From an uncultured Calditrichaceae bacterium (GTDB lineage Bacteria > Calditrichota > Calditrichia > RBG-13-44-9), in NCBI GenBank assembly GCA_964495805.1, contig CAZBWV010000051.1:8973-72972 (forward strand): DNA of 64,000 nt, read 5' to 3'. Each line of letters begins with the position of its first letter. Position 1 is the stretch's first letter. Of the stretch, positions 771 to 19,802 are shown one piece after another. The notes under the pieces are model-generated. The model saw only the letters and a program-made list of their open reading frames with translations, ran no database searches and was not told the origin of the DNA. The translations under genes were made by a program, and so were the position numbers.

Positions 771-779
771 CTATGAGCT

Positions 780-1796
780 ATGGCTGTCACCATTAAAGAT
801 GTTGCCAAACGCGCGAATGTCTCCGTCGCCACCGTCTCCCTGGTGATTCATAATAATAGCCGAATCTCCCGGGAAACCCGCAAACGCGTCCTGAAAGCAA
901 TCCGCGAATTGAATTACCATCCCAGCCGATTTGCTCGTGGGTTGGTCTCCCAAAAAAGTGGTAATATCGGATTTATCCTCACCGAAGATCACTTCTCCCG
1001 TTCCGAACCGTTTTATACTCAGGTATTTCTGGGTACCGAATTTCAGGCCCGGGAACATGAATATTATATCTTGCTCACCACAGTGCCGGAAAACTATTCC
1101 CACAACGATCCATTACCCCGATTTGTGCTGGAAAATAATGTGGAAGGGGTCATTCTGGCCGGAAAAGTTCCCCAGGCGCTCATCGAGGGATTGGAACAAT
1201 TCCATTTACCTCTGGTATTTGTGGACTATGTGCCCCCCAGGGGAAATTATCCCGCAGTGATGATTGACAATATTGCCGGGGGATTGATGGCCACCAATCA
1301 TCTGATCGGGTGCCGCCACCGGAAAATTGCCTTTGTAGGGGGCGACCTGGATCATCCCAGCATCACCGAGCGCTTTCAGGGGTACAAAATGGCACTGGAA
1401 AAAGCCGGTATCGATTACCATTCCCGGTACGTGGTGGTCGATGAACCGTTGCCAACCAGAGAGTATGGCTATGAGGCGGGGAAGAAACTGTTAGATAAAG
1501 CCGGGGATGTTACCGCGGTATTTGCCTGTAACGATGCCATGGCGATTGGCTTGTTGCAGTACTTCAAAGAGCGTGGACTGAATGTCCCCGGGGATATTTC
1601 TCTGATTGGATTTGATGATGTGGAAGCAGACCTGTCGTTGGATCCTCCGCTTACGACCATTCGCGTCTCCAAAGTGGACCTGGGAGTGGAAGCAATTAAT
1701 CTCATCGCCGAAATTTTGAAAAAAGGACGTTCTAATCCTCACAAAATTCTGGTTCCGGTAGAGCTGGTCATTCGCCAATCGACCTGTTCCATCTGA
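780..1796 (+). CDS. LacI family transcriptional regulator
   Basis: N-terminal HTH motif IKDVAKRANVSVATVSLVIHNN...ELNYHPSRFARGL is classic LacI/GalR. It is followed by a periplasmic-binding-protein-like sugar-binding domain. Length 338 aa. Confidence 0.9.
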   Translation: MAVTIKDVAKRANVSVATVSLVIHNNSRISRETRKRVLKAIRELNYHPSRFARGLVSQKSGNIGFILTEDHFSRSEPFYTQVFLGTEFQAREHEYYILLTTVPENYSHNDPLPRFVLENNVEGVILAGKVPQALIEGLEQFHLPLVFVDYVPPRGNYPAVMIDNIAGGLMATNHLIGCRHRKIAFVGGDLDHPSITERFQGYKMALEKAGIDYHSRYVVVDEPLPTREYGYEAGKKLLDKAGDVTAVFACNDAMAIGLLQYFKERGLNVPGDISLIGFDDVEADLSLDPPLTTIRVSKVDLGVEAINLIAEILKKGRSNPHKILVPVELVIRQSTCSI

Positions 1797-1872: not shown

Positions 1873-1890
1873 TAAATTATGGAGGTCTGT

Positions 1891-3734: not shown

Positions 3735-6440
3735 ATGCGCCGCCTACCAGTTTATTGGGATATGCCCGTTCAAATCATTGCCCTGCTTCTGATATTTCTG
3801 TCCCTGAGCTTTGCCGGTACCACCGGGAAAATTGTGGGTCGAATTGTGGATGCATCCACCGGGGAGCCGTTACCGGGAGTTAACGTACTGGTGGAAAACA
3901 CAACCTACGGTGCGGCAACGGATGTGGATGGCACTTTTTTAATTATCGGGATTCCGCCGGGCACATACACCCTGCGGGCCATGATGATTGGTTACAACGA
4001 CATGGTAGTCAAAAATGTGCGGGTGAGTGCGGACAAAACCACTCACGTGGATATGAAGTTACAGCAAACCACCCTGGAGTTAGGCGAGGCTATCGAGGTG
4101 ACAGCTGAGCGGCCACTGGTCAAAAAAGACCTGACCTCCACCGAATCCGCCGTAAGTAGCGATGTAATTGAAGCACTACCGGTGGAAACATTCTCTGATG
4201 TGGTCAATTTGCAGGCCGGGGTCATAGACGGACACTTCCGTGGCGGACGGCTGGGAGAGGTGGCTTATATGGTGGATGGCGTGCCGGTGAACGACGTGTA
4301 CTCCGGTTCCTACGCCATCGAGATGGAAAACAACGCCATCCAGGAACTGACTGTCATTAGCGGTACCTTCAATGCGGAGTACGGGCAGGCTATGTCCGGT
4401 GTGGTGAATATTGTGACCAAGGACGGTACGGACCATTTTACTGGGGATCTCAGTGTTTACGGAGGAGATTATCTCAGCACGCACGACGATATCTTCTGGA
4501 ATATCAAGGATTTCAATCCCATATTCAATTTGCAGGGGAACCTTAGCGGTCCGGTTCCCGGATTCGGGAAGAAGTTGAATTTTTTCCTCTCCGGACGCTA
4601 CTACGAAAATGCCGGTTACATTTACGGAAAGGAAGTTTTTCTCCCCACAGATAGTTCAGATTTCAGTCCGGATGACCCGGAAGACCGAATTGTGGAGAGT
4701 CATGGGGTACGCTATCCTTTCAGCGAGCAACTGGCACAGGATCTCATTCATCGGGCAAAGGCAGTGTCCATGAATCCCTCCCGGCGCCTGACCGGAGATT
4801 TGAAACTGACTTACCGTTTAACCGGAACGGATAAAATATCTGTGGACGGAATTTACCAGAATCGCCAGTGGCGGGAATACGATCACCGATTTCGCCTGAA
4901 TCCGGATGGCGATTACAAACGCTTTCAGCAGAGCGTGACGGCGCTGACACACTGGAACCATGTGTTCAGTGCACGCACTTTTATGGATGTGCGCTATTCT
5001 TACTTTTACACGGAGTACGACCAGTACGTGTACGAAGATCGGTTCGATCCCCGGTATGTTCCCGCTTCGCGATTGCAGTTAACCGGGGCCAATGCTTTTC
5101 TGGCCGGTGGTCAGCAGATGTGGCAATTCCATCGCAGTACCATGAGCCATCTTATTAAAGCAGAACTCACCAGTCAGGTGACCAACACCCATCAGCTCAA
5201 AGGAGGTGCACAGGTGCGCCGACACCGCCTGTGGCTTCACGAATATGAAGTGATTCCGGAAGACCCCGATCGCATGGCGCCCATCACTTCCTTCAATAAT
5301 AACATGTATCTGCACCATCCGCTGGAGTTTTCCGCCTACCTTCAGGACAAAATGGAATTTACCTACATGATTGTGAATGCTGGTGTTCGCTTCGATTATT
5401 TCGATCCCGATGGACAGGTGCCGGTGGATTTCTCCAACCCCTCCCAATCCCCCATGCGTAAAGCCGAAAGCAGCTGGCAGGTGAGTCCCAGATTGGGTAT
5501 TGCCTATCCCATTTCCGAAAAAGGGGTCATTCACGTTTCCTATGGTCATTTCTTCCAGGTGCCCAATTTCTTCTATCTGTACACCAACCCCGAGTTCGAT
5601 GTATTTCCGTTGCAGGGAACTCCCTCCCCACCGCCGCAATCGCTAATTAACACCATGGGAAATGCCGAGCTGAAACCGCAGAAAACGGTGATTTACGAAA
5701 TCGGGCTTCAGCAGCAGGTGGGAAGTATGTTTGGGCTGACCGTGACGGCTTATTACAAGGACATCCGTAACCTGCTGGGGACACAGGTGCTGGAAACCCA
5801 GCAGGGAATAAAATATGCGCGTTACATTAACCGGGATTATGGGTTTGTCCGCGGTATTACCCTGGAGCTGGAAAAGCGATATTCCAACGGAATTAGCGGA
5901 AGCGTGGACTACACCTACCAGATTGCCAAGGGAAACGCTTCGGATCCCAATACCGCCTTTTTAGATGCTCAGAGCGATCCGCCCAAACAAACGGAAAAGC
6001 AACTGGTTCCGCTGAACTGGGATCGTCGGCATCAGATTAATGCTACACTGACCCTGGGGACACCGGGGAAATTTGCCCTGACGCTGATTATGCGTTATGG
6101 TACCGGTCTGCCGTACACCCCCACCTTCCAGAATGTACAAACAGCCGTGGAAAACAGTGGGCGCAAACCGGATGAATTCTACATCGATTTGTATTTCAAT
6201 AAAGTGTTTAAATGGGGTGGGATGGAGTACAGTTTTTTCACCCGAATCTACAATTTGCTGGATCGGCTGAACGAGAGGAACGTGTTTACCGATACCGGTC
6301 GCGCGGGATATACCCTGGCTCCATTGTATGTGGGCGGGCTGCGTCCCCGCGGGTTAAACACCCTGGATCAGTACTTCATTCGACCCGATTTTTATTCCGA
6401 ACCGCGCCGGGTGCAAATTGGACTGGAACTTAGATTTTAA
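3735..6440 (+). CDS. SusC/RagA-like TonB-dependent receptor (CarboxypepD_reg N-terminal domain + plug + beta-barrel)
   Basis: Signal peptide. N-terminal GKIVGRIVDASTGEPLPGVNVLVENTTYGAATDVDGTFLI carboxypeptidase-regulatory-like domain. Plug motifs (VTAERPLVKKDLTSTESAVS). 901 aa, ending in ...GLELRF with a terminal Phe. GGGGAGG Shine-Dalgarno 7 nt upstream. Confidence 0.85.
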   Translation: MRRLPVYWDMPVQIIALLLIFLSLSFAGTTGKIVGRIVDASTGEPLPGVNVLVENTTYGAATDVDGTFLIIGIPPGTYTLRAMMIGYNDMVVKNVRVSADKTTHVDMKLQQTTLELGEAIEVTAERPLVKKDLTSTESAVSSDVIEALPVETFSDVVNLQAGVIDGHFRGGRLGEVAYMVDGVPVNDVYSGSYAIEMENNAIQELTVISGTFNAEYGQAMSGVVNIVTKDGTDHFTGDLSVYGGDYLSTHDDIFWNIKDFNPIFNLQGNLSGPVPGFGKKLNFFLSGRYYENAGYIYGKEVFLPTDSSDFSPDDPEDRIVESHGVRYPFSEQLAQDLIHRAKAVSMNPSRRLTGDLKLTYRLTGTDKISVDGIYQNRQWREYDHRFRLNPDGDYKRFQQSVTALTHWNHVFSARTFMDVRYSYFYTEYDQYVYEDRFDPRYVPASRLQLTGANAFLAGGQQMWQFHRSTMSHLIKAELTSQVTNTHQLKGGAQVRRHRLWLHEYEVIPEDPDRMAPITSFNNNMYLHHPLEFSAYLQDKMEFTYMIVNAGVRFDYFDPDGQVPVDFSNPSQSPMRKAESSWQVSPRLGIAYPISEKGVIHVSYGHFFQVPNFFYLYTNPEFDVFPLQGTPSPPPQSLINTMGNAELKPQKTVIYEIGLQQQVGSMFGLTVTAYYKDIRNLLGTQVLETQQGIKYARYINRDYGFVRGITLELEKRYSNGISGSVDYTYQIAKGNASDPNTAFLDAQSDPPKQTEKQLVPLNWDRRHQINATLTLGTPGKFALTLIMRYGTGLPYTPTFQNVQTAVENSGRKPDEFYIDLYFNKVFKWGGMEYSFFTRIYNLLDRLNERNVFTDTGRAGYTLAPLYVGGLRPRGLNTLDQYFIRPDFYSEPRRVQIGLELRF

Positions 6441-6454
6441 TCACGAGGATGACA

Positions 6455-9400
6455 ATGAAACGATTGTCATGGAAAACGTTGCTGGTTGCCTGTATGGTTT
6501 GGGTGTTCGCCCGGAGTGGGTGGGCACAACGAACCCCGGATCCCAACGTGGGAAACACCGAGTTGCGTCGCCAGGGAATTATGGATGGCAACCTGGTACG
6601 CACCATCTTTATTAACTGGGGCGAAATTGCTCACTGGCCGGATTCCCCTTCCGGGGAATGGCCCAAAGGGACCGGCCATCAGTATGTGGATGGTGTGGCG
6701 TTAATTGTTCAGGGACGCGCCATCGACAACAACGGAAACGTTATCCATCCCATGGAAACCCAGTACCGGGAATTTGTGGACAAAGGACCACACGACGAGC
6801 TGTGGGGCTGGGGTCCGCTTCCCGGCTATTTTAACGAAGAAGGAAACAGCCCTGCGATGAGCAACGATCCGCTTACCTGGCCGGACTACTGGCCGGATAA
6901 ACCGGACGGCTGGGTAAATCCCAACGAGGTGCGCAACGACCAGGATGATGATGGCAACGGATTGGTGGACGATCTGGTGTACTGGAATGGCTTCTTCGGA
7001 AAAGGTGTGCGCAATGCCGATCTGGAAACGTATTTTGTGTTTGATGACGATCCCGATGAGGAATGGGATTTTTATCCCGATCCGGCGCGTCCCGATCGTC
7101 GGGGAATGGGTCTGGAAGTGGCTGCGCGCTATTTTCAGTGGTCGCAGGTGCTGGCCGAAGACGTGATTTTTGCTGTGTACTTCATCACCAACGAGGGCAA
7201 GTACAATTACGATAGCACCTACTACTGTTTTTACATTGATTGGGGGATTGGGGGGACGGACGATTCCTCGGACGATACCGGTGATTACGACACCTATCTG
7301 GACATTGCCTGGGCATGGGATTACGATGGATTTGGTTCCCCGGGACACTGGCATCCGGTAGGAGTGGCGGGTTTCGCCTTTCTGGAGAGTCCCGGCATTG
7401 CCGATGACGGAGTGGATAACGACGATGATGGCATCGTGGACGAACGGCGCGATTCCGGCCCGGGAACCTGGCTGAGCGAATATCCCTACGGTGTGGATCC
7501 GGTGAAATACGAAGCCTATTTCGGGCATCCTCCCGCACCTCACTGGAGCGGTGATGAAGATGGCGACTGGAAACCCTACACCGATGTAAACCAGAACGGT
7601 CAGTGGGACGAGGGAGAACCGCTGAATGATGATGTGGGCGAAGACGGGCTGGGTCCCAACGATTTTGGTTATCCAGGACCCGATGTGGGCGAAGGAGACG
7701 GAATCCCCACAGCCGGTGAACCAGATTTCGATTACACCGACAAAGATGAGTCGGACCAGATTGGGTTAACCGGTTTCCGCATCTTTCCGGTTCATACTTA
7801 CGAATTGTGGAATGAGGAGCAGGATTGGGAAGTGTTTCGCTCCGCGCCACCACCCCATAGCAATCAAGTAACCGCCAATCTGGGGATGTTCTTCTCCTCC
7901 GGTCCTTTTCCCCTGAAAGCAGGGCAGACCGAAAATTATTCCATGGCGTTGCTGTTCGGAGAAGATAAAGATGATCTGGTGCTGACCAAGAAAACCATTC
8001 AACAAATTTATAATGCCGATTATCGCTTTGCCAAACCACCGGAAAAACCGCGACTCAAGGCGGTGATTCCGGGAGATAATCGGGTAATTCTGGTATGGGA
8101 TGACCGGGCCGAACGCTCCTGGGATCCCTTCCTGCAGGAATACGATTTTGAAGGGTACCGGATTTACCGCAGTACCGAACCGGAATTTCTGGAAACCCGA
8201 CTTATCACCGATGCCTACGGGCGGTTAACCTTCCGCAAACCCATCGCTCAGTTCGATTTGAAAAATGAATGGAGCGGTCTGCATCCCATCGATGTATCGG
8301 GTGTTCATTTCAATCTGGGAAACAATACCGGCTTGTCCCATTACTATGTGGATACCGATGTGAAAAACGGACAAACGTACTACTACGCAGTGGTATCTTA
8401 CGATCACGGTCTGGTGGATACCAGTGCAACCGGTACGCTGGTGGGATTGGCTCCCGCGGAGTGTACCAGTAAAATTCAGAAGGATATTTCCGGGAATGTG
8501 CAGGTAGATATTAACACAGCAGTGGTCACCCCCTCGGCGCCGGTTGCCGGCTATGTACCGCCCGAATTAGTGGGCGATTTTGTCCGGGAAACCGTGGGCA
8601 CCGGCGAGGTGAATCTGGAGTTTCTCATTCCCGATTCCGTACGGGATGGACATACCTATTCCATTGAGTTCGGTGATACTTCTTTCTTCCACAACGAAGG
8701 GAATTCGTACTATGTGATATATGATATTACCGGCGGAGAGAAAATTCCCAGAACGGATACCTTGTGGATTGATGGCGACAGCCAGTCTCCACTGGTGGAT
8801 GGCTTTGTGCTAACCATCCATAATGATGCCTGCGATCTGGATTACGACAACACCGGCTGGCTGGTGGGTTCTTCCACCTACAAATGGCGAGTGAATCAGG
8901 ACAGCCGCTTCTCCAATACCAATCCCGCATTGAATTTCAATATCAACTATCCTGCAGATTTCGAGGTAACCTTTTCCGATCAGATAATCGATACTGCGGA
9001 GAATGTACTGTTCCCGCCGGATGTGCCGACTAAATTTTCCATATACAACGTTACGGAGGATTCTGCCGCTCATTTTATGTTCCTGGAATTTGATAATCCC
9101 GATTCCACGCTCAGTCCGTACTATCCGGATGACGAGCAGATGGAAAGTGCCATTATCTGGGTACCCGATCCCAGACCGAGTAATCCGTTACACATCAAAA
9201 CTTCCTGGCGGCTCTATTTTGAGGCGGATACCACGGTGGATCACATGGTGCCGCCACAACCGGGCGATATTTTCCGCATCGCCACCAAAAAGCCGTTCCG
9301 CACCGGCGACCGTATCGAGTTTACTGTACGGGGTCAGCGCTACGATGTGGAAAAAGCGAAAAGCGATATGGATCAGATTGCTGTCGTTCCCAATCCCTAT

Positions 9401-9682
9401 GTGGTTACGGCTGCCTGGGAACCCAATTCTCCCTATCGTTTCGGACGGGGTGAGCGGCGGATTTACTTTATCCATCTGCCCAAAAAGTGTACCATTCGCA
9501 TCTACACCCTGCGGGGGTATCTGGTGGATACCATCGAACACAACAGTTCGCTGGAGAACGGACAGGAAGCCTGGGATATGCTGAATAAGGACGGACAGGA
9601 AATTGCCTATGGAATTTACATCTACCATGTGGATGCTCCGGGGGTAGGTGAGAAAATCGGGAAGTTTGCCATTATTAAATAA
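6455..9682 (+). CDS. large acidic cell-surface protein with TSP3-like Ca-binding Asp-rich repeats and a variant, extended T9SS-like C-terminal domain (cassette copy 1)
   Basis: Signal peptide (MKRLSWKTLLVACMVWVFARSGWAQ). Repeats DQDDDGNGLVDD, DNDDDGIVDE and GDEDGDWKPYTDVNQNGQWDEGE. FN3-like YDFEGYRIYRST. C-terminus VVPNPYVVTAAWEP...CTIRIYTLRGYLVDTIEH...GIYIYHVDAPGVGEKIGKFAIIK. GAGG lies 6 nt upstream of the ATG at 6455; the alternative ATG at 6449 has no spacing. Confidence 0.75.
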   Translation: MKRLSWKTLLVACMVWVFARSGWAQRTPDPNVGNTELRRQGIMDGNLVRTIFINWGEIAHWPDSPSGEWPKGTGHQYVDGVALIVQGRAIDNNGNVIHPMETQYREFVDKGPHDELWGWGPLPGYFNEEGNSPAMSNDPLTWPDYWPDKPDGWVNPNEVRNDQDDDGNGLVDDLVYWNGFFGKGVRNADLETYFVFDDDPDEEWDFYPDPARPDRRGMGLEVAARYFQWSQVLAEDVIFAVYFITNEGKYNYDSTYYCFYIDWGIGGTDDSSDDTGDYDTYLDIAWAWDYDGFGSPGHWHPVGVAGFAFLESPGIADDGVDNDDDGIVDERRDSGPGTWLSEYPYGVDPVKYEAYFGHPPAPHWSGDEDGDWKPYTDVNQNGQWDEGEPLNDDVGEDGLGPNDFGYPGPDVGEGDGIPTAGEPDFDYTDKDESDQIGLTGFRIFPVHTYELWNEEQDWEVFRSAPPPHSNQVTANLGMFFSSGPFPLKAGQTENYSMALLFGEDKDDLVLTKKTIQQIYNADYRFAKPPEKPRLKAVIPGDNRVILVWDDRAERSWDPFLQEYDFEGYRIYRSTEPEFLETRLITDAYGRLTFRKPIAQFDLKNEWSGLHPIDVSGVHFNLGNNTGLSHYYVDTDVKNGQTYYYAVVSYDHGLVDTSATGTLVGLAPAECTSKIQKDISGNVQVDINTAVVTPSAPVAGYVPPELVGDFVRETVGTGEVNLEFLIPDSVRDGHTYSIEFGDTSFFHNEGNSYYVIYDITGGEKIPRTDTLWIDGDSQSPLVDGFVLTIHNDACDLDYDNTGWLVGSSTYKWRVNQDSRFSNTNPALNFNINYPADFEVTFSDQIIDTAENVLFPPDVPTKFSIYNVTEDSAAHFMFLEFDNPDSTLSPYYPDDEQMESAIIWVPDPRPSNPLHIKTSWRLYFEADTTVDHMVPPQPGDIFRIATKKPFRTGDRIEFTVRGQRYDVEKAKSDMDQIAVVPNPYVVTAAWEPNSPYRFGRGERRIYFIHLPKKCTIRIYTLRGYLVDTIEHNSSLENGQEAWDMLNKDGQEIAYGIYIYHVDAPGVGEKIGKFAIIK

Positions 9683-9750
9683 ATTCATTTAGCCGGTAAA
9701 ACGGATGGAATCCGGTAAAATGTAAACATGAAAACGAACAGGTAAGCGGT

Positions 9751-10776
9751 ATGAAAGCCATTTCCCTTGTTCTGAGTCTGTTACTTTTGTGGAGTGTTTC
9801 GGGGCTATCGCAATACAGCAGTAAAGTGTCCAATGTGGGCACCACCGCTGCTCCTTTTCTGGAAATCGGGGTAGGTGCCCGGGCAATTGGCATGGGGGGC
9901 GCGTTCGTTTCCACTGCCAACGATGCCAGTGCCCTGTACTGGAATCCCGCCGGCGTGGCGCGATTGAAACGGCCGGAATTACTGTTCGTCCACACCAACT
10001 GGATTGCTGATATTCGCTACGATTTTGTGGGCGCCACCCTTCCCTTAGGGCGTTTTGGAACCCTGGGCGGTAGCATTACCAGTCTGGGTATGGACGACAT
10101 GAAAGTGCGCACCGAAGACCAGCCCGAAGGTACCGGCGAATACTTCAATGCCAGCGATCTGGCGCTGGCTATCTCCTATGCCTTTAATCTGACCGACCGG
10201 TTTTCCATCGGATTTAATGCCAAATACATTCACCAGCGCATCTGGAAGGAGAGCTCGCGCGGTTTTGCCCTGGACATCGGAACGCTATTTACCACCGGAT
10301 TTTACGGTATGCGCATCGGTGCAGCGCTCACTAATTTCGGAACCGATATGCGTCTGGAAGGTGATGATCTGCTGGTGTATCATGATATCGATCCCTACCA
10401 TCTGGGGAATAACGAACGTATATTTGCGGAGTTGAAGACGGATAAATGGCCCCTACCGCTCAATTTCCAGGTGGGGGTGGCAATGGAGGTGCTGAACAAC
10501 ACCCGGCACCGCCTGACTCTGGCCACCGAAGCCATGCATCCCATCAATAATACCGAAAGCATGAATGTGGGAATGGAATATGCATTTCGCGAGCTGTTTT
10601 TCCTGCGCGGGGGATATCGTAACCTGTTTCAGCGAGATAGTGAAGAAGGATTTACCCTGGGTGCCGGTTTTGCTGTGCGATTTCTGGGAAATTTTAAGGT
10701 AACCGTCGATTACGCATATGCCGATTTCGGACGGTTACAGAATTCCCAGCGGTTTTCCATTAATATGATGTTTTAG
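9751..10776 (+). CDS. FadL/PorV/PorP-like outer-membrane beta-barrel protein (cassette copy 1)
   Basis: Signal peptide. N-terminal motif GVGARAIGMGGAFVSTANDASALYWNPAGVARL resembles the FadL/TodX NPAGL region. Length 341 aa, alternating amphipathic strands, C-terminal ...SINMMF with a terminal Phe. Confidence 0.6.
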   Translation: MKAISLVLSLLLLWSVSGLSQYSSKVSNVGTTAAPFLEIGVGARAIGMGGAFVSTANDASALYWNPAGVARLKRPELLFVHTNWIADIRYDFVGATLPLGRFGTLGGSITSLGMDDMKVRTEDQPEGTGEYFNASDLALAISYAFNLTDRFSIGFNAKYIHQRIWKESSRGFALDIGTLFTTGFYGMRIGAALTNFGTDMRLEGDDLLVYHDIDPYHLGNNERIFAELKTDKWPLPLNFQVGVAMEVLNNTRHRLTLATEAMHPINNTESMNVGMEYAFRELFFLRGGYRNLFQRDSEEGFTLGAGFAVRFLGNFKVTVDYAYADFGRLQNSQRFSINMMF

Positions 10777-10873
10777 CAGTAGCTGTTAGCATTTGATATC
10801 GCCTCCTGCGGAGCACGTCTGGTGGAGGGGATTGATTCGACCACGAACGAAAGGAGAACAAAAAACGATTGAC

Positions 10874-12193
10874 ATGGAGGGCAACATCAGGCAAAGGTTC
10901 TGGATAACCGGGATAGGACCCCGCATTTTTCTGGGGGTCATTTTTTTTATTCTGATAGGTTGTCATCGCGAAAAACAGTCTGCGGAGCAGGCCATTGTGT
11001 ATTGGTCCTCCAACAACAATTACGAGATAGAGTTTGCCCGCGCGGTGGTGGCGGATTGGAACCGCTTGCATCCCGACGTACCGGTGAAAACTCAGCCGGT
11101 TCCCGAGGGACAATCCAGCGAAGAGGTGATCCTGGCTGCGGTGGTGGGGAAAACCACTCCGGATATCTATTCCAACATGTGGCAGGGCGATGTGGCATTT
11201 TATGCTTCCTCCGGTGTGCTGGTTGCATTGGACACTATTCCCGGTTTTCTGGAATTTCTCCGTCAACGCTGCGACAGCGCCACCCTCCAGGAAGTAACTG
11301 CGGAAAACGGGCATATTTATCAGATTCCCTGGAAAATGAATCCCATCATGATGATTTATAATCGAAAGGCGTTGCGGGAAATCGGTTTTCCGCGGCCGCC
11401 GCAAACCTACTCCCGTTATCTGGAGGCCGCGCGCCGGTTCAGCCGGGACGCTGACGGAGACGGGTATGTGGACCACTGGATTGGTTATACCAATGTTTCG
11501 GTCACCTGGTGGCAACGGTTGTTCGATTTTTACCCGCTCTACCTGGCAGCGTCCGGTGGGGCACCGCTGGTTCGGGGGAATCGAGTGATGTTCGAAAATG
11601 CCCATGCCGTGGAAGTGTTCCGTTTTCTGAAAACCCTGTTCGAGAAAAACTACTTCCCCCGGGAACAGCTTTCTGCCCGGCAGGATGCGTTTCTCTCCGG
11701 CATCATTGCTACACGAATTACCGGTCCGTGGGATATCATGCATGTGGAACGCTTTAAACCGAAAGGCTTCGAATATGCCTTTACTTCCGTACCCCGACCC
11801 GATGAGTGCGAAGGGCCGGTGTACACGTACTGCGATCCGAAAAATATCGTCATTTTTAACACCTGCACGCGACCGCAACAGGCGGTGGAATTTGTGAAGT
11901 TTATGTTGAGTGAGAAGAATGACTTCCGTTTGCTGGAAATGACACGTCAGCTACCCAGACGCAGGGATTTGTTCTCCAGCGATCGGTTTATGGCCTATTT
12001 TCTGGCTCACCCTCGCATGCTGCCCTTTGCCCGGCAGGCGCGGTATATCCGGGGAACAGACAATTCCCCGGTGCTGAAGGAAATTTTTGATGCCATTTCT
12101 CAGGAATTTGAAGCGTGTGTGGTGTACGGCACCAAATCCCCGGAACAGGCGATTCACGATGCCGCCACCGCAGCGCAGCTATTGTTAAAATAA
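10874..12193 (+). CDS. ABC transporter substrate-binding lipoprotein, family 1 (sugar/oligosaccharide)
   Basis: Lipobox (FFILIGCH) after the start at 10874; the upstream in-frame ORF from 10793 is unlikely to be translated. Size and composition fit extracellular solute-binding family 1. It is followed by two MalF/MalG-type permeases. Confidence 0.7.
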   Translation: MEGNIRQRFWITGIGPRIFLGVIFFILIGCHREKQSAEQAIVYWSSNNNYEIEFARAVVADWNRLHPDVPVKTQPVPEGQSSEEVILAAVVGKTTPDIYSNMWQGDVAFYASSGVLVALDTIPGFLEFLRQRCDSATLQEVTAENGHIYQIPWKMNPIMMIYNRKALREIGFPRPPQTYSRYLEAARRFSRDADGDGYVDHWIGYTNVSVTWWQRLFDFYPLYLAASGGAPLVRGNRVMFENAHAVEVFRFLKTLFEKNYFPREQLSARQDAFLSGIIATRITGPWDIMHVERFKPKGFEYAFTSVPRPDECEGPVYTYCDPKNIVIFNTCTRPQQAVEFVKFMLSEKNDFRLLEMTRQLPRRRDLFSSDRFMAYFLAHPRMLPFARQARYIRGTDNSPVLKEIFDAISQEFEACVVYGTKSPEQAIHDAATAAQLLLK

Positions 12194-12205
12194 CGGACGA
12201 GCCGC

Positions 12206-13069
12206 ATGAAACGGAAGTTGAAGAAACAACTGATTCCTTATGTGATGGTGTCGCCTTATGTACTGCACTTTTTGTTGTTTGTGTTGTTTCCGGTAGTATT
12301 TTCGTTTGTACTCATTTTTCACCGCTGGAATATCATTTCGCCTATGGAATTTGTGGGATTGGGCAATTTCGACCGCCTGTTTCATGACCGCTTGTTTTTC
12401 AAATCTCTGGGGAATACGCTAATTTTTTTGATTATCCACATTCCTTTACAAATTGCTGTGGCGTTGTTCTTTGCCGAATTGCTTAATCAGCGAATTCGGT
12501 TGCGGGGATTTTTCCGTGCGGCGTACTTCCTGCCGGTTGTGGTTTCCGGTGTGGTGGTCACTGTGTTATGGCAGCAATTGTACGGATTCGATACCGGTTT
12601 GCTGAATCGGTTACTGGTCAAACTGGGGCTGGGCCGCGTACCCTGGCTGGTAAGTCCCAAACTGGCTATGCCCTCCATTGCACTGATGGCAACCTGGAAA
12701 AATGTGGGTCTGTACATTGTGTTGTTTCTGGTCGGGCTTCAGAGTGTACCCAGCCATTATTACGAAGCCGCCGAATTGGAGGGCGCCACTCACTGGCAGA
12801 AGTTCTGGTATATTACCCTGCCCATGATTAATCCCACCATTTTTATGGTGGTGGTGCTTTCCACCATTGGCGGATTTTCTCTGTTTATTGAACCGTATGT
12901 GATGACCGGAGGCGGACCGTTAAATAGCACCCTCTCGGCGGTGTTGTACATTTACAAGCAGGGCTTCTTTTTCTACCACATGGGTTATGCCGCTACCCTG
13001 GGATTCTTCTTTGCCGCATTAATTTTGATGGTGGTGTTCTTACAGAAGCGGTTTGTGGAAAGGGAGTAG
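12206..13069 (+). CDS. ABC transporter permease (MalF/UgpA-like)
   Basis: Six-TM permease with the EAA-like loop region (YEAAELEGATHWQKFWYITLP). Confidence 0.8.
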   Translation: MKRKLKKQLIPYVMVSPYVLHFLLFVLFPVVFSFVLIFHRWNIISPMEFVGLGNFDRLFHDRLFFKSLGNTLIFLIIHIPLQIAVALFFAELLNQRIRLRGFFRAAYFLPVVVSGVVVTVLWQQLYGFDTGLLNRLLVKLGLGRVPWLVSPKLAMPSIALMATWKNVGLYIVLFLVGLQSVPSHYYEAAELEGATHWQKFWYITLPMINPTIFMVVVLSTIGGFSLFIEPYVMTGGGPLNSTLSAVLYIYKQGFFFYHMGYAATLGFFFAALILMVVFLQKRFVERE

Positions 13070-13370
13070 GGAAAGAAGGGGAAATAAGGGGGATAAGGAA
13101 ATAGATGAAATGTAGGATGGGGAAGTAGAATGAGTACTGAGGGTTTTATCTCATGAACAGGTGTGCAATTGGTGGTGCGGTTAAAAGTTTGTCAGACCTG
13201 ATTTCAGGAGGGTGAGGGGGAGCATAACACATTGATTTTTCGCTGTTTTCGCGAATGAATATATACGGCAGATTTTTCCTGGAATTTTGGTATTCGCTTC
13301 ATGATTGCTCGGTGTTTCTTTAATAGCAGTATAAGCGGTATTTTCGGGTGAGTGAAAAAAAGGGATTCAG

Positions 13371-14189
13371 GTGAAAGTGATTAAAAAAATCGGGTTGTAC
13401 GGAATTTTATTTGTGGGAGCAGTGGCATTCACCTATCCGTTTTTATGGATGCTGTTTGCTTCCCTGGCACCTGAATCGGAAATCGGGCGACTGACTTTGT
13501 TTCCTTCCGCCCTGACCCTGCACAATTATCAGCAGGTTGTGGAAAAAATCCCTATTTTTCGTTCTTTACTGAACAGCCTGATTGTTTCCTTCAGCGTCAC
13601 GGTCGGTGTTCTGGTGTTCAGCTCCATGGTGGGTTACGCTCTTTCTCGCCTGCGCTTCAAAGGTCGCAACCTGATTTTCTACATTATCATTTTTACCATG
13701 ACTCTGCCGTTTCAAATTACACTGATTCCCCAGTATATTTTGATGGTGAAATTTGGCTGGGTGGACAGTTACCTGGCATTAATTGTTCCCTACCTGCTCA
13801 GCGCTTTTGCCATCATCATGTTCCGACAATATTTTATGACCATTCCGCAGGATTTAATTGATGCGGCACGCATTGATGGATGCTCGGAATTTCAGATCCT
13901 CTTTCGCATCCTCTGGCCCAACTCCGTGCCCGCTCTGGTTACGGTGGGCATCATTACCTTCATGACTTCCTGGAACGAAGTGCTCTGGCCCATCATTGTA
14001 ATTCGTAACGAAAAGTTAATGACCATGCCTCAGCTGGTAACCCTGTTTGTAGTGGGAGGGCGTTCCGAATCCCAGCTGGGAGTGAAACTGGCCTCTGCCA
14101 CCATGCTGGCATTGCCCATTATTGTGGCGTACATCTTCTTCCAGCGGTATTTCATCCAGAGTATGGCCAGCACAGGAATGAAGGAGTAA
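13371..14189 (+). CDS. ABC transporter permease (MalG/UgpE-like)
   Basis: Six-TM permease with conserved IDAARIDGCSEFQILFRILWP (EAA motif). Confidence 0.8.
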   Translation: MKVIKKIGLYGILFVGAVAFTYPFLWMLFASLAPESEIGRLTLFPSALTLHNYQQVVEKIPIFRSLLNSLIVSFSVTVGVLVFSSMVGYALSRLRFKGRNLIFYIIIFTMTLPFQITLIPQYILMVKFGWVDSYLALIVPYLLSAFAIIMFRQYFMTIPQDLIDAARIDGCSEFQILFRILWPNSVPALVTVGIITFMTSWNEVLWPIIVIRNEKLMTMPQLVTLFVVGGRSESQLGVKLASATMLALPIIVAYIFFQRYFIQSMASTGMKE

Positions 14190-15706: not shown

Positions 15707-16636
15707 ATGGCAGAAGTGAAGCTGAAACGCGTGAACGGAGTTATTCTGGGACCGATTGCCGAACATCCCTGGGAGTCCCGTGCGGCGTTTAATCCGGGAG
15801 CTGTTCTGGTTAACCAGGAGGTGCATTTGCTGTACCGCGCGGTGGAAGGGGACAACTTCTCGACCATCGGATATGCTCGTCTTACACCGGACGGGCAGCT
15901 CCTTTACCGACATCCGGAACCGGTGATTCGGCGCGAGCAGGAACAGGAAAAACAGGGGGCCGAAGACCCGCGCATCGTGCCTTTTCAGGAAAAATACCTG
16001 GTGTTTTACACCGGTTACAATGGGCAAACCGTGCGGGTGATGATGGCCGAAACAGAAGACTTTTTACGTTTCCACAAACATGGTGTGGTGGGGCCGGATC
16101 ATAACGATAAGGACGCCATGCTCTTTCCGGAAACCTTCGGGAACCGGGTGGCATTTCTGCACCGTATTGAACCCAGCATTCAGCTGGCCTGGTTCGACGA
16201 CTTCCAGCATTTTCTCCATCCCGAAAAGGAATACTGGCCCACCCATCTGCAACAACTGGAGCAGCACGTGGTGATGCATCCCGAATACAGCTGGGAAGCG
16301 GAAAAGATTGGCGCGGGTCCTACCCCCATTCACACCGAGGCGGGATGGCTGCTGATTTACCATGGTGTGGATCGCCAGCTTACCTACCGGGCCGGGGCAG
16401 CGCTGTTGGACGAAAAAGACCCCACCCGGGTTATTGCCCGACTTCCGTATCCCATACTGGAACCGGAACGCGATTACGAGAAAATTGGCGATGTGAATAT
16501 GGTGGTGTTTCCGGAAGGAGCAGTGGTGGCGGAGAATGAATTGTACGTGTTTTACGGTGGGGCTGATAAAGTGGTGGGGCTGGCTGTTTGCCGCCTGTCC
16601 GATTTAATCGATGAACTCTGGCGACACCGAGTGTGA
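15707..16636 (+). CDS. GH130 family glycoside phosphorylase/hydrolase (beta-mannoside-acting, DUF377)
   Basis: N-terminal ...WESRAAFNPGAVL... and five-bladed-propeller-like repeats (LVFYTGYNGQ, LLIYHGV). Length 309 aa. Adjacent to a GH2 beta-mannosidase. Confidence 0.6.
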   Translation: MAEVKLKRVNGVILGPIAEHPWESRAAFNPGAVLVNQEVHLLYRAVEGDNFSTIGYARLTPDGQLLYRHPEPVIRREQEQEKQGAEDPRIVPFQEKYLVFYTGYNGQTVRVMMAETEDFLRFHKHGVVGPDHNDKDAMLFPETFGNRVAFLHRIEPSIQLAWFDDFQHFLHPEKEYWPTHLQQLEQHVVMHPEYSWEAEKIGAGPTPIHTEAGWLLIYHGVDRQLTYRAGAALLDEKDPTRVIARLPYPILEPERDYEKIGDVNMVVFPEGAVVAENELYVFYGGADKVVGLAVCRLSDLIDELWRHRV

Positions 16637-19600
16637 TGAAATCTTTGTTTCAACACAAAAAATGGCGTTTAGCGGCAGGCAGGGTGTGGTGGCAGATTTT
16701 ACTGCTGGTTGGCACTTCCGCGTTTAGCCAGCAGATCACCATTCCCCGCGTGAATCTGATGCCCGATTTCCCCCAGCCGTATCACATGCGTAACTGGAAA
16801 AAGGTGGCGCTGGGGTACGATTCGCTGGTGTTTAATTTCCACGCCAGCGGACAGTACCTGCCGCTTATTCGCTGGAACACTTCGCCGGTAAATTACCCGA
16901 ATCATCCCAGCTTTGGTTTGCATACCGTGGTGGGAACTCTGTACCCGGAAAGCGCCGAAGCGATTAATGCACTGCCTGCGGTTATAGGAGCCATGCTTTG
17001 CGGAGTGGACAAACGGCATCAGTTCGGGCAGGATTTTGTGCTGATGTGTGAGGAATGGTTCAATCGCCGACCGGCTGAAAATGTGTATCTGAACCATCCC
17101 TATACCAGCAGTGGTAGCGACTGGTGGTATGATACCATGCCGAACCTGTTCTTCTACCAGTTGTTCGATCTGGCCAGCGATCTTAGCATTGGCGAATTTG
17201 CCCTTCAGTTTGAACTGGTAGCCGACCGGTGGCTGGAAGCGCTTGGTGCCATGGGGGGAAGTGCCACCCCCTGGAACGTGCCCGGGATGAACTACCACGG
17301 ATGGCACCTTTCCACCATGACTCCCAACACGAACGGTGTTCCGGAGCCGGAAGCAGCGGGTGCCATAGCATGGCTCCTGTACATGGCGTGGAACAAACTT
17401 CATCATTTAAAATATCGCACGGGGGTGGAATGGGCGCTGGAGTTTCTGGAAGCGTGCCCCTCTAACCCCTCTTACGAGCTTCAGCTTCCCTACGGTGCCT
17501 ATGTTGCGGCCCGGATGAATGCCGAAGTGGGGACTACTTACGACATTCCCCGTCTGGTGAATTGGTGCTTCGACGTCGGCCCGTTGCGCAATTGGGGAGC
17601 TATTGTGGGAACCTGGGGTGGGTACGATTGTTCCGGTCTCATCGGAGAAATCAGCGGCAACGACTACGCTTTTTTCATGAACACGGTGGAACAGATTGGA
17701 GCTCTGGTTCCCCTGGTACGCTACGACGAACGGTTTGCCACTGCCATCGGAAAATGGGTATTGAATGCCACCAATGCCCTGCGCCTGTTTTATCCCAACT
17801 TTTTGCCGGACGACCACCAGGACAATGAACAATGGGCACATCAGTACGATCCACATTCCTGCATCGCTTACGAAGCGCTGCGGGAGGAGTATCAGGGCTA
17901 TAGTCCCTATGCTACCGGCGATGCCATGAGCGGTGGCTGGGGATTAACCAACTTGACTCTGTACGGCTCCTCCCACGTAGGCATTTTGGGTGCCATTGTG
18001 GATACTACCAACATTCCCGGTATTTTAAAACTGGATGTATTGAAGACAGATTATTTCCATCGTCCGGCCTATCCCACCTATCTGCTGTACAATCCTTATT
18101 CCGTGGATACTCTGGTGGCGCTACCCCTGCCGATCGGTAATCATGATATTTACGAGGTGGTGAGCAATCAATTTGTGCAGCAAGGGGTCAGCGGAACTGC
18201 CCTGTTAAATCTACCTGCCCATCAGGCCTGGCTGGTTGTGCTGACGCCGGCAGGTGGAGCTCTTGCCTACCGGCAGGAATGGATGCTGGTGAACGGGGTG
18301 GTAGTGGATTTCCGCTCCGGACAGCCTGTTAGCAATTATCCGCCCCGCATCAAAGGGCTGGCAGCTGACCCGCCCACAGTGGGAATTGCAGATACTACCA
18401 CACTGTTCTGCACGGCGGTAGATCGCGATGGCGATTCACTCACTTTCCAGTGGATCTGTTCTTCCGGAAATGTGTTTGGTAGCGGAAGTCAGGTTCAGTG
18501 GGTGGCTCCCGGTGTGGTTGGTCAGGGATCGGTGAGGGTGGTGGTAAGCGACGGGCTGGCAACGGATACCGCCCGGCTGGAAATTCCCGTTACCCAGCCG
18601 GTGAATCATCCTCCGGTCATTGAATCGCTCACCGCCCGTCCGCGGAAAATCGATCTGGGGGGAACCGTACGGTTGCAGTGTACGGCATACGATCCCGATG
18701 GCGATTCGTTGAGTTACGACTGGACGGCCAGTGCAGGGATTTTGCAGGATAGTTTGAACACCGCAACCTGGACGGCTCCCATGCAACCGGGGGATGACAC
18801 CATTTACTGTCGGGTGGTCGATTCCCGCGGGGCGGAAGCCCGGGACAGCATCGTGGTGCTGGTGCGCGACTTCTCCCAGTTTGTTCCCGGGAAGTTAATT
18901 GCTTACTATCCCATGAATGGGAACGCCAACGATGCCAGCGGACACGGTTACCACGGGGTGGTGCATGGTGCCGTACTTACGACCGACCGTTTCGGAAATC
19001 CTAATGCCGCTTACCGGTTCGACGGTGTGGACGATTACATCTCGGTAGCCAATCACGACAGTTTGAACTTCCGCCGGGCCATCTCTCTGAACTTCTGGAT
19101 GAAAATCGATCAGTTCTCCGGTCACGAAGCATTTCTTCTCTCCCACGGAAGCTGGCAGCATCGCTGGAAGGTCTCGCTGATTCCTTCCCGACATCTGCGC
19201 TGGACTGTCAATACCGATCAGGGAATTGTGGATCTGGACAGCGAAAATCCCCTGCAGGGAGGAATCTGGTACAACGTTACCTGCTATTACGATGGTTCCG
19301 GTATGGAGCTTTACCTGAATGGCGAGCTGGATAACTTTACTTCCTGCTCCGGTCTGATCCGGCAAACCAGCTACGATTTGACCATGGGTCAGATGCTTCC
19401 GGGAAACGCCAGCTACAACTTTGCCGGAGTGCTGGATGAGGTGCGAGTTTACAATTACGGATTGTCCGTGCCGGAAATCACCACTCTGTACCAGATGCCC
19501 AATGGAGTTACTCCGCCGGAGGGGGTTCCTCTTGCCCGGCAATTCAAAGTGTATCCGAATTATCCCAATCCGTTTAATTCCGTTACGGTAATCCAATACA

Positions 19601-19800: not shown

Positions 19801-19802
19801 TC

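What the first reader, a model, noticed from the sequence alone, without database searches (positions are those of the whole stretch)
9751..10776. Dedicated FadL/PorV/PorP-like barrel encoded immediately after each variant-CTD cargo
A ~340-aa barrel with a FadL-like NPAG motif and terminal Phe follows each large protein, in both copies. This matches the SprB/SprF and type-B-CTD/PorP pattern, where a cargo-specific outer-membrane adaptor is encoded next to its cargo. The same pairing around a SusC-like receptor would tie T9SS cargo docking to a TonB transporter.
Basis: inference. Interest (0 to 1): 0.65.

Follow-up and report, generated by a model that had tools for sequence, protein, structure and literature searches.

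The report
Cargo-dedicated PorV/PorQ-like outer-membrane barrel
This gene encodes an outer-membrane barrel of the type IX secretion PorV/PorQ family that, here and in many other bacterial phyla, sits directly after a large uncharacterised surface protein with an unusual secretion tail and a TonB-dependent receptor, which points to an undescribed way of tethering a nutrient-capture protein beside its importer.

Summary
ORF 9751-10776(+) encodes a 341-aa signal-peptide protein with YWNPAG and a terminal Phe. A 45%-identical paralogue lies at 33195-34214(-). Each follows a ~1000-aa protein and a TonB-dependent receptor.

The barrel is a full-length member of NCBIfam "PorV/PorQ family" (246 bits, cutoff 90). 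It falls below the PorV, PorQ and PorV2 equivalog cutoffs and the FadL cutoff, and it does not hit PorP/SprF. Its AlphaFold model matches F. johnsoniae PorV best (TM 0.68).

The large proteins have no Pfam or NCBIfam family. They end in a distinct, highly conserved derivative of the type-A T9SS C-terminal domain.

The order receptor, large protein, barrel is complete in 49 of 55 assessable loci, from Calditrichota, KSB1, Gemmatimonadota, Marinimicrobia, Ignavibacteriota, Rhodothermales and others. Of 81 variant-tail genes, 75 are directly followed by such a barrel, against 0 of 109 canonical type-A cargo genes in the same loci.

Best reading: a cognate PorQ-like carrier and anchor that holds an uncleaved variant tail, tethering a surface partner beside its TonB-dependent transporter. 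This is inferred, not shown. I found no paper describing the module. Two Rhodothermus locus descriptions list the genes without comment.

The parts
780..1796 (+). LacI-family regulator at the head of locus 1
   Evidence: Pfam LacI 76.9 bits and Peripla_BP_3 129 bits
1879..3357 (+). Canonical type-A CTD (T9SS cargo) protein directly upstream of the receptor, with a weak CBM_4_9 hit
   Evidence: TIGR04183 36 bits vs cutoff 23; FlgD_ig 36 bits. A type-A CTD gene lies directly upstream of the receptor in 37/57 related triads.
3735..6440 (+). TonB-dependent receptor 1: CarboxypepD_reg-like N-terminal domain, Plug, 22-strand-type barrel
   Evidence: PF00593 100 bits, PF13715 73 bits, Plug 26.8 bits. 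SusC/RagA TIGR04056 reaches only 60 bits vs 368.
6449..9682 (+). Large (1077 aa) secreted all-beta multidomain protein 1 of an unannotated family
   Evidence: No Pfam family at E<=0.01. AF2 pLDDT 77, all-beta, no enzyme fold found. The family has 9284 50%-identity clusters at E<=1e-3.
9365..9679 (+). Variant type-A-like C-terminal domain of large protein 1 (VVPNPY...GKFAIIK, with a ~15-aa insertion)
   Evidence: hhalign vs local type-A CTDs gives 96.8% probability, E 2.6e-10. Score classes are separate. Alignments.
9751..10776 (+). The finding: PorV/PorQ-family outer-membrane barrel 1 (341 aa)
   Evidence: NF033709 245.7 bits vs 90. AF2 pLDDT 81. Best PDB fold match is PorV 8gl6_F/6h3i_F, TM 0.68-0.69. 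The only solved sequence relative is PorV, E 8e-18.
10793..14189 (+). ABC sugar importer: solute-binding protein and two permeases, immediately downstream of the barrel
   Evidence: SBP_bac_8/SBP_bac_1 and BPD_transp_1. The gap between barrel stop and SBP ORF is 16 nt.
15707..22244 (+). GH130 phosphorylase, a Laminin_G_3 protein with type-A CTD, and a GH2 beta-mannosidase-like enzyme. Likely substrate class of locus 1 is beta-mannosides.
   Evidence: PF04041 194 bits; PF13385 + PF18962; PF22666 185 bits + Ig_mannosidase
39998..41719 (-). Locus 2: BNR-repeat protein with type-A CTD, upstream of receptor 2
   Evidence: PF18962 36.5 bits, BNR_2 33.9 bits
37109..39904 (-). TonB-dependent receptor 2, paralogue of receptor 1
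   Evidence: Pfam. 49% identity over the N-terminal 236 aa and 26% over the barrel.
34231..37053 (-). Large protein 2 (940 aa) with the same variant CTD
   Evidence: 31% identity to large protein 1 over the C-terminal 611 aligned positions, E 4e-70. CTD alignment.
33195..34214 (-). PorV/PorQ-family barrel 2 (339 aa)
   Evidence: NF033709 212.7 bits. Full-length but sub-threshold alignment to PorQ (105 bits vs 220). 45% identity to barrel 1.
32200..33069 (-). RpiR/SIS regulator downstream of triad 2, followed by peptidase and amidohydrolase genes
   Evidence: HTH_6 + SIS; M14, amidohydrolase, PALP

Best explanation
The barrel is a cargo-dedicated member of the PorV/PorQ family. It probably acts like PorQ does for PorZ, as a cognate carrier and permanent outer-membrane anchor for the protein encoded just upstream.

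Proposed sequence of events:
1. The ~1000-aa all-beta protein is exported by Sec. (Signal peptide shown.)
2. Its variant type-A-like C-terminal domain directs it to the T9SS translocon. (Homology to type-A CTDs shown; secretion inferred.)
3. It leaves the translocon bound to its own PorV/PorQ-like barrel instead of the general PorV. (Inferred.)
4. The tail is not cleaved by PorU, so the protein stays non-covalently tethered to the barrel on the cell surface. (Inferred.)
5. The tethered protein works with the TonB-dependent receptor encoded immediately upstream, as a substrate-capturing or lid-like partner. That is the position SusD and surface glycan-binding proteins occupy in Bacteroidota loci. 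Captured oligomers then pass to the periplasm and to the ABC importer and GH130/GH2 enzymes of the locus. (Gene content shown; function inferred.)

Each triad carries its own barrel because recognition is pair-specific.
For: - Family and fold. NF033709 scores 245.7 and 212.7 bits against a cutoff of 90, full length. The best solved fold is PorV from the SprA-PorV-substrate-CTD complex (TM 0.68-0.69, E 3e-15), ahead of FadL (TM ~0.5-0.57). PorV is the only solved sequence relative (E 8e-18).
- The tail of both large proteins is homologous to type-A CTDs (hhalign 96.8%, E 2.6e-10) but forms a separate class. The type-A HMM gives it 16-36 bits against 46-124 for true type-A. The variant HMM gives 115-177 bits against <=34.
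- Synteny in 79 loci from many FCB-group phyla. 67/73 have the large gene directly upstream of the barrel (median gap 14 nt). 49/55 have the full receptor-large-barrel order. The same order is seen in Caldithrix abyssi and KSB1.
- Specificity. 75/81 variant-CTD genes are directly followed by a barrel, against 0/109 canonical type-A genes in the same loci (Fisher p 2e-46).
- The three genes diversify together. Nearest-neighbour congruence is 0.58-0.67 against ~0.02 expected; Spearman 0.54-0.75. 41/58 barrels from the other retrieved triads are closer to barrel 1 than its in-genome paralogue is, so these are old, separately maintained pairs.
- Several loci carry 2-3 triads (L019, L041, L022, L034), like multiple SusCD pairs.
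- The CTD is the most conserved part of the module (53% mean pairwise identity, against 39% for the rest of the large protein).
- The window holds at least 5 canonical type-A CTD proteins, so the organism uses T9SS-type sorting.
- Precedent. PorU and PorZ keep their CTDs and stay bound to PorV and PorQ, and cognate PorV-like barrels have been proposed to protect CTDs from cleavage (PMC10202324). Type-B cargo leaves the translocon on alternative carriers that anchor it (PMC10994853; PMC9143113).
Against: - Nothing here shows a physical barrel-tail contact, retention of the tail, surface exposure, or any contact with the receptor. All rest on synteny and homology.
- No T9SS core genes (SprA/Sov, GldKLMN, PorU) lie in the window. 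I found no paper on T9SS in Calditrichota.
- The tail misses the curated type-A and type-B models: no TIGR04183/PF18962 hit at E<=0.01, and CHU_C scores 19.5 bits against 27.
- The barrel keeps the FadL-type NPA(G) hatch motif and gives a sub-threshold Toluene_X hit (24.5 vs 29.7), so a channel function cannot be excluded.
- The loci were picked by similarity to barrel 1 (the best 80 of at least 577), so the synteny figures describe this subfamily, not all PorV/PorQ proteins.
- A few loci deviate: two variant-tail genes per barrel, or the receptor between them (L017, L051).
Confidence: 0.55

Rival explanations
1. The barrel is simply one of the organism's general PorV shuttles, or the PorQ of the attachment complex. 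It would serve all type-A cargo, and its position next to the large protein would be incidental.
For: It belongs to the PorV/PorQ family and folds like PorV. Many canonical type-A cargo genes lie in the same loci.
Against: - It is below the PorV (89/250), PorQ (93-105/220) and PorV2 (120/325) equivalog cutoffs.
- There are two copies in 64 kb and up to three in 21 kb elsewhere, each tied to its own receptor and large protein.
- 0/109 canonical type-A genes precede such a barrel, against 75/81 variant-tail genes.
- Paralogues are older than the phyla that share them.
Confidence: 0.08
2. The barrel is a FadL-type diffusion channel that moves a small, amphipathic or hydrophobic compound (a substrate, product or signal) across the outer membrane for the locus. 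This would be independent of the large protein's tail.
For: NPAG hatch motif and terminal Phe. Sub-threshold Toluene_X hit (24.5 bits). FadL, TodX and TbuX are significant structural matches (TM 0.50-0.59). It sits in nutrient-uptake loci.
Against: - The PorV/PorQ model scores ten times higher than FadL, and PorV is the better structural match.
- The partnership is with the variant-tail gene specifically.
- It persists across loci whose enzymes point to different hydrophilic substrates: mannosides, starch-binding CBM20, peptidases, amidase. It also appears in Rhodothermus alginate and xylan loci (PMC9530828, PMC6987092).
Confidence: 0.1
3. Barrel and large protein form a T9SS-independent two-partner surface-display or assembly system. 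The barrel itself would translocate or insert the C-terminal domain, in the manner of Slam for TbpB or type V systems, or would act as an assembly factor for the receptor complex.
For: The tail fails the curated T9SS CTD models. Its extra ~15-aa insertion is unique. No T9SS core genes are in the window. FadL-like barrels have been recruited to other machines, such as BamG in Bacteroidota BAM (hits 9hiv_F and 9hjm_F).
Against: - The tail is clearly homologous to type-A CTDs.
- 61/81 loci also carry canonical type-A cargo.
- A 14-strand-class barrel with a hatch is too narrow to pass a folded ~1000-aa protein. This is established knowledge of FadL and PorV, not tested here.
- The BamG model scores only 22 bits against 250.
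Confidence: 0.15

Closest known systems
PorQ-PorZ and PorV-PorU pairs of the T9SS attachment complex (Porphyromonas gingivalis)
   Same: A PorV/PorQ-family barrel holds a T9SS protein whose type-A-like C-terminal domain is retained rather than cleaved (PMC10202324). The barrel here is of PorQ size, and copy 2 aligns end to end with the PorQ model.
   Different: It is below the PorQ and PorV equivalog cutoffs. It is multi-copy per genome. The partner is not a secretion-machine component but a variable ~1000-aa protein encoded between a TonB-dependent receptor and the barrel. The tail has its own conserved signature and insertion.
SprF/PorP-like barrels with type-B CTD cargo (SprB/SprF; PMC9143113)
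   Same: The logic is the same. A cargo-specific barrel gene lies next to its cargo gene, and the cargo leaves the translocon on that carrier and is anchored by it (PMC10994853).
   Different: The barrel family differs: no PorP_SprF hit at E<=0.01. The tail class differs too: it is a type-A derivative, not type B. Known type-B pairs are not described as linked to TonB-dependent receptors (my own knowledge).
SusC/SusD pairs and 'utilisomes' of Bacteroidota polysaccharide utilisation loci
   Same: A TonB-dependent receptor with the carboxypeptidase-regulatory-like N-terminal domain is followed by a gene for a surface partner, inside regulated loci with CAZymes and cargo proteins. There are several paralogous sets per genome.
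   Different: The receptor fails TIGR04056 (60 bits vs 368). The partner is not a SusD-fold lipoprotein but an all-beta Sec/CTD protein. A third gene, the barrel, is obligatory. Inner-membrane uptake here is by an ABC system.
TbpA-TbpB-Slam type systems of Proteobacteria (comparison from my own knowledge, not tested)
   Same: A three-part design: a TonB-dependent receptor, a surface-exposed substrate-capturing partner, and a dedicated outer-membrane barrel needed to display that partner, often encoded together.
   Different: The protein families are unrelated (DUF560 Slam barrel, lipoprotein partner) and the export route is different.
FadL/TodX hydrophobic-compound channels
   Same: The fold class is shared, including the N-terminal hatch with an NPA motif and a C-terminal Phe.
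   Different: Below the Pfam cutoff (24.5 vs 29.7). The protein is smaller (341 aa against ~420). The structural match is weaker than to PorV. The genomic partnership is with a CTD protein.

Membership tests
PorV/PorQ family (NCBIfam NF033709) | Full-length match above the curated cutoff (90 bits) | tested here: met
   245.7 bits (residues 31-340 on model positions 1-325 of 326) and 212.7 bits for copy 2
PorV/PorQ family (NCBIfam NF033709) | FadL-like beta-barrel with an N-terminal hatch, closest to PorV in structure | tested here: met
   AF2 pLDDT 81, pTM 0.75, with 16 DSSP strand segments after a helical N-terminal segment. Foldseek best hits are PorV 8gl6_F and 6h3i_F, TM 0.68-0.69. The exact strand count could not be read without coordinates.
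PorV/PorQ family (NCBIfam NF033709) | Organism has a T9SS | tested here: inconclusive
   At least 5 canonical type-A CTD proteins are in the window, but no core T9SS gene lies in the 64 kb.
PorV proper (NF033710 equivalog) | Score >= 250 bits | tested here: not met
   89.4 and 74.4 bits, N-terminal half only
PorQ proper (NF033711 equivalog) | Score >= 220 bits | tested here: not met
   92.9 bits (copy 1) and 105 bits (copy 2, full-length alignment)
PorV2 (NF052325 equivalog) | Score >= 325 bits | tested here: not met
   120.5 and 94.9 bits
PorP/SprF (PF11751, TIGR03519) | Match to the family model | tested here: not met
   No hit at E<=0.01 in Pfam or NCBIfam for either copy
FadL/TodX (PF03349 Toluene_X) | Score >= 29.7 bits over the barrel | tested here: not met
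   24.5 and 16.6 bits, covering only the ~30-residue NPA motif region
FadL/TodX (PF03349 Toluene_X) | Lateral opening and a continuous passage for hydrophobic substrates | not testable with these tools
BamG (NF053685) | Score >= 250 bits | tested here: not met
   22.3 bits. The structural match to 9hiv_F is only TM 0.50.
T9SS type-A CTD (TIGR04183 / PF18962), for the large proteins | Match to the curated CTD model at the C-terminus | tested here: not met
   No hit at E<=0.01. Profile-profile homology is nevertheless clear (96.8%, E 2.6e-10), so it is a derived subclass.
T9SS type-B CTD (PF13585 CHU_C / TIGR04131), for the large proteins | Match above cutoff | tested here: not met
   Large protein 2 scores 19.5 bits vs 27. 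Large protein 1 has no hit.
SusC/RagA (TIGR04056), for the receptors | Score >= 368 bits | tested here: not met
   60.3 and 62.7 bits, restricted to the N-terminal part of the model
SusD/RagB, for the large proteins | SusD-like fold or family match, and a lipoprotein signal | tested here: not met
   No Pfam or NCBIfam hit. The AF2 model is all-beta. The signal peptide has no convincing lipobox.

The most novel reading that the evidence does not exclude
The receptor / variant-tail protein / PorQ-like barrel triad is a distinct, ancient and very widespread nutrient-acquisition architecture of the non-Bacteroidia FCB-group phyla. It would be a SusD-independent counterpart of the SusCD system. In it, the surface partner of a TonB-dependent transporter is delivered by type IX secretion and held in place by its own carrier barrel through an uncleaved, specialised C-terminal domain. 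The variant tail would then be a third functional class of T9SS sorting signal ('retain on cognate PorQ-like barrel'). The ~9000-cluster large-protein family would be a new class of substrate-capture proteins.
Probability: 0.4. Interest if true: 0.8.

Novelty: new variant of a known kind. Interest (0 to 1): 0.66.

Why it matters
If correct, this explains how bacteria that lack SusD lipoproteins equip their TonB-dependent transporters with a surface capture protein. That would apply to Calditrichota, KSB1, Marinimicrobia, Ignavibacteriota, Gemmatimonadota and Rhodothermales, groups that are abundant in sediments, oceans and hot springs.

It would give a simple three-gene marker for finding their substrate-utilisation loci, as SusC/SusD does for Bacteroidota.

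It would also extend T9SS biology in two ways: a tail subclass that specifies retention on a cognate barrel, and a direct functional link between secretion and TonB-dependent import.

Finally, it assigns a testable role to two large unannotated protein families. One has no Pfam or NCBIfam model at all. The triad already sits unremarked in published Rhodothermus marinus alginate and xylan loci, and that organism is cultivable, so experiments are feasible.

Tried and rejected
- PorP/SprF membership is rejected. There is no model hit.
- Weak NCBIfam hits of the variant tails to the C-termini of PorZ and PorU (18-25 bits) looked like a specific link to the two CTD-retaining proteins. The canonical type-A protein 1879-3357 hits the PorU C-terminus more strongly (38 bits), so these hits are generic to CTDs and I do not use them as evidence.
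- The third large-database search, with the tail profile, returned almost only short contig-end fragments. It said nothing about which architectures carry the tail, so I used local HMMs on the fetched loci instead.
- Foldseek of the whole 1077-aa model against PDB gave only generic FN3/Ig multi-domain matches with TM<0.1. The profile search of PDB gave only a marginal PorU-tail hit (E 0.11). The function of the N-terminal ~950 aa is therefore unresolved.
- The promoter and terminator scan of 1-14500 was at background level and does not define the operon. Co-transcription is inferred from the 8-68 nt gaps only.
- Ten literature searches found no description of the module and nothing on T9SS in Calditrichota.
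- Mirror-tree style correlations show co-inheritance of the module but cannot prove physical interaction.
Full report
**1. What is at the coordinates**

ORF 9751-10776(+) is real. It encodes 341 aa with a signal peptide, the motif YWNPAGVARL at residues 63-72, and a C-terminal Phe.

It starts 68 nt after the stop of a 1077-aa ORF (6449-9682). That ORF starts 8 nt after a 901-aa ORF (3735-6440).

A second set lies on the minus strand:
- receptor, 37109-39904
- 940-aa protein, 34231-37053
- 339-aa barrel, 33195-34214

Identity between the two sets:

| Component | Identity |
|---|---|
| Barrels | 45% (E 2e-107) |
| Large proteins | 31% over the C-terminal 611 aligned positions (~24% over a 309-column N-terminal stretch) |
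| Receptors | 49% in the N-terminal 236 aa, 26% in the barrel |

**2. Classification of the barrel**

| Model | Copy 1 (bits) | Copy 2 (bits) | Cutoff |
|---|---|---|---|
| NF033709 PorV/PorQ family | 245.7 | 212.7 | 90 |
| NF033710 PorV | 89 | 74 | 250 |
| NF033711 PorQ | 93 | 105 (aligned end to end) | 220 |
| NF052325 PorV2 | 120 | 95 | 325 |
| NF053685 BamG | 22 | no hit | 250 |
| PF03349 FadL/Toluene_X | 24.5 | 16.6 | 29.7 |

- Both PorV/PorQ-family matches are essentially full length.
- Pfam places only the N-terminal half in PorV (47 bits) and UPF0164.
- No PorP/SprF model is hit at E<=0.01 in either library.
- An AlphaFold2 model built from 48 homologues has mean pLDDT 81 and pTM 0.75. 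It shows a short helical N-terminal segment containing the NPAG motif, followed by 16 DSSP strand segments.
- Foldseek against the PDB ranks F. johnsoniae PorV first: 8gl6_F, the SprA-PorV complex with a bound substrate CTD, and 6h3i_F (TM 0.68-0.69, E 3e-15 and 4e-12). FadL, TodX, TbuX, CymD and BamG follow at TM 0.50-0.59.
- A profile of the family finds only PorV among all solved chains (E 8e-18).

The barrel is therefore a PorV/PorQ-family protein of PorQ size. It is not an orthologue of PorV, PorQ or PorV2, not PorP/SprF, and not a FadL-type transporter by the curated criteria.

**3. The neighbours**

*Receptors.* Both carry the carboxypeptidase-regulatory-like N-terminal domain, a Plug and a TonB-dependent barrel. 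They reach only 60-63 bits on the SusC/RagA model, whose cutoff is 368.

*Large proteins.*
- They have no Pfam family at E<=0.01, apart from a sub-threshold CHU_C hit for large protein 2 (19.5 bits vs 27). They have no NCBIfam family beyond weak tail hits.
- The AF2 model of the 1077-aa protein (pLDDT 77) is an all-beta multidomain chain with acidic, calcium-binding-type loops and FN3-like domains.
- Foldseek found no enzyme fold, only generic FN3/Ig matches.

*The tail.* Their last ~105 residues align with the canonical type-A CTDs of six other proteins in the window:
- VVPNPY against NYPNPFN
- IYTLRG against IYNxLGQ
- GxYxYxV
- a terminal GKFAIIK against KxxLxK
- an extra ~15 residues after the PNPY motif

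Profile-profile comparison of 60 such tails with 111 canonical type-A CTDs from the same loci gives 96.8% probability, E 2.6e-10. Cross-scoring separates two classes cleanly:

| HMM | Score on variant tails (bits) | Score on canonical type-A CTDs (bits) |
|---|---|---|
| Type-A | 16-36 | 46-124 |
| Variant | 115-177 | <=34 |

"Variant CTD" is therefore an accurate description. It is a derived subclass of type A, not type B.

*Locus 1* is otherwise a LacI-regulated sugar locus. It holds a type-A CTD protein, an ABC importer, GH130, a Laminin_G_3 CTD protein and a GH2 beta-mannosidase-like enzyme.

*Locus 2* holds a BNR CTD protein, an RpiR regulator, two M14 peptidases, an amidohydrolase and a PLP enzyme.

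**4. Source and relatives**

- The identical barrel is on a 138.7-kb metagenome contig and in a MAG.
- The nearest named relatives are Calditrichia and Caldithrix, then KSB1 and Zixibacteria.
- NCBI already names many homologues "PorV/PorQ family protein". All homologues of the large protein that carry a name are called "hypothetical protein".
- The large-protein family is big. It has 9284 clusters at 50% identity with E<=1e-3, and 1535 with E<=1e-30.

**5. Conservation of the arrangement**

A scan of one genome per species returned at least 577 relatives of the barrel. I examined the best 79 loci. They come from Calditrichota, KSB1, Gemmatimonadota, Neomarinimicrobiota, Ignavibacteriota/Melioribacteraceae, Rhodothermales, other Bacteroidota MAGs, Zhuqueibacterota and Kryptonium.

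| Test | Result |
|---|---|
| Loci with enough upstream sequence that have a large-family gene directly before the barrel | 67/73 (median gap 14 nt) |
| Loci with at least 7 kb upstream that have the full receptor-large-barrel order | 49/55 |
| Variant-tail ORFs directly followed by a barrel | 75/81 |
| Canonical type-A CTD ORFs directly followed by a barrel | 0/109 (Fisher p 2e-46) |
| Receptors with a canonical type-A CTD gene directly upstream | 37/57 |

- Most of the remaining loci are near-variants, with a split or duplicated large gene or an inserted gene.
- Caldithrix abyssi and a KSB1 MAG show the same order in independently called genes.
- Several loci hold two or three triads (L019, L041, L022, L034).
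- In the more divergent secondary triads of L003 and L034, the middle protein shares only the tail with the window's proteins. This points to the tail-barrel pair as the conserved core.
- The upstream type-A CTD gene is often an FG-GAP protein. Flanking genes vary: CBM20, S8 protease, amidase, dockerin.
- The three genes diversify together. Nearest-neighbour congruence is 0.58-0.67, and Spearman is 0.54-0.75.
- 41 of 58 barrels from the other retrieved triads are closer to barrel 1 than its in-genome paralogue is. The paralogous modules are therefore old and separately maintained.
- The tail is the most conserved segment: 53% mean pairwise identity, against 39% for the rest of the large protein. 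It is also more conserved than canonical type-A CTDs in the same loci (54% against 38%).

*Caveat.* The loci were selected by similarity to barrel 1. The figures describe this subfamily, not all PorV/PorQ proteins.

**6. Mechanism**

Established T9SS biology gives the template:
- Type-A cargo is carried from the SprA translocon by PorV, whose extracellular loops contact the CTD (PMC10994853).
- PorU and PorZ keep their CTDs and remain bound to PorV and PorQ. A review has proposed that cognate PorV-like barrels protect CTDs from cleavage (PMC10202324).
- Type-B cargo leaves on PorP/SprF-like carriers that anchor it (PMC9143113; PMC10994853).

The best-supported reading here is a cognate PorQ-like carrier and anchor for a variant-tail protein. 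That protein would be the surface partner of the adjacent TonB-dependent transporter.

*Shown:* family, fold class, tail homology and distinctness, synteny and its specificity, and locus content.

*Inferred:* T9SS dependence, tail retention, barrel-tail binding, and cooperation with the receptor.

I put this at about 0.55. The rivals are a general PorV/PorQ (0.08), a FadL-type channel (0.10), and a T9SS-independent display or assembly role (0.15). They are weighed in their own sections.

**7. Comparison with what is known, and novelty**

- In mechanism the closest precedents are PorQ-PorZ and PorV-PorU.
- In gene logic the closest is SprB/SprF.
- In locus role the closest is SusC/SusD.
- In overall design it resembles TbpA-TbpB-Slam. 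That last comparison is from my own knowledge.

It fails the membership tests for PorV, PorQ, PorV2, PorP/SprF, FadL, SusC and SusD. It passes only the broad PorV/PorQ family test.

Ten full-text searches found no description of the module. It does appear, without interpretation, in two places:
- probably the same arrangement in the xylan locus, as Rmar_1070-1072 (PMC6987092).

I rate it a new variant of a known kind. Cognate PorV-like barrels for CTD proteins are known. A dedicated tail subclass and systematic coupling to a TonB-dependent receptor across many phyla are not.

**8. Verdict**

- Interest is 0.66. A specialist in T9SS or glycan uptake would find the breadth and strictness of the association surprising. 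It is directly testable in cultivable carriers.

Noticed in passing
window 22468-33069 (minus strand): The second triad heads a cluster that looks peptide- or amino-sugar-oriented rather than glycan-oriented. It holds an RpiR/SIS regulator, two M14 carboxypeptidase-domain proteins (523 and 863 aa), a Na_H_antiporter-family transporter, an amidohydrolase, a PLP-dependent enzyme and another type-A CTD protein. The substrate could be peptidoglycan-derived or other peptides.
   Followed up: partly
window 42441-51782 (+): A run of genes: DctM-like permease, AstE/AspA-like deacylase, DUF6305, two proteins with type-A CTD-like tails (one an AAT/peptidase-C45-like), gamma-glutamyltranspeptidase and an Asp/Glu racemase. 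This may be a gamma-glutamyl or D-amino-acid peptide utilisation cluster.
   Followed up: no
window 55910-61811 (+): A complete RND efflux operon: HlyD-type adaptor, AcrB-family pump (1034 bits) and an OEP/TolC-like outer-membrane factor.
   Followed up: no
window 14286-15611 (+), 51790-52902 (-), 53501-54667 (-): Three sizeable ORFs (441, 370 and 388 aa) have no Pfam match at E<=0.01. The 441-aa one sits inside the mannoside-type locus, between the ABC permease and GH130.
   Followed up: no
window 12001-14000 and 42001-44000: Local GC dips (0.47) with strongly negative AT skew (-0.20, -0.17) coincide with membrane-permease genes. This is most simply a codon-composition effect of hydrophobic proteins, not foreign DNA.
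   Followed up: partly
L017:5121-11014, L051:1221-11005, L021-L023: These are variants of the module. A Gemmatimonadota locus has two variant-tail genes in tandem before one barrel. L051 has two variant-tail genes, then the receptor, then the barrel. L021 and L023 have ~1.4 kb, and L022 ~0.5 kb, of extra sequence between the large gene and the barrel.
   Followed up: partly
L071:1537-3420, L064:1628-3430, L061:1565-3439: In Rhodothermales, Marinimicrobia and Melioribacteraceae loci, the gene directly upstream of the receptor is an FG-GAP-repeat protein with a canonical T9SS tail. Overall, 37/57 receptors have a type-A CTD gene upstream, which suggests a frequent four-gene unit.
   Followed up: partly
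window 6449-9682 and relatives: The large-protein family (9284 clusters at 50% identity with E<=1e-3) has no Pfam or NCBIfam model, and every homologue that carries a name is called 'hypothetical protein'. Its N-terminal ~480 aa carries repeated acidic DxDxDG-like motifs suggestive of calcium binding.
   Followed up: partly
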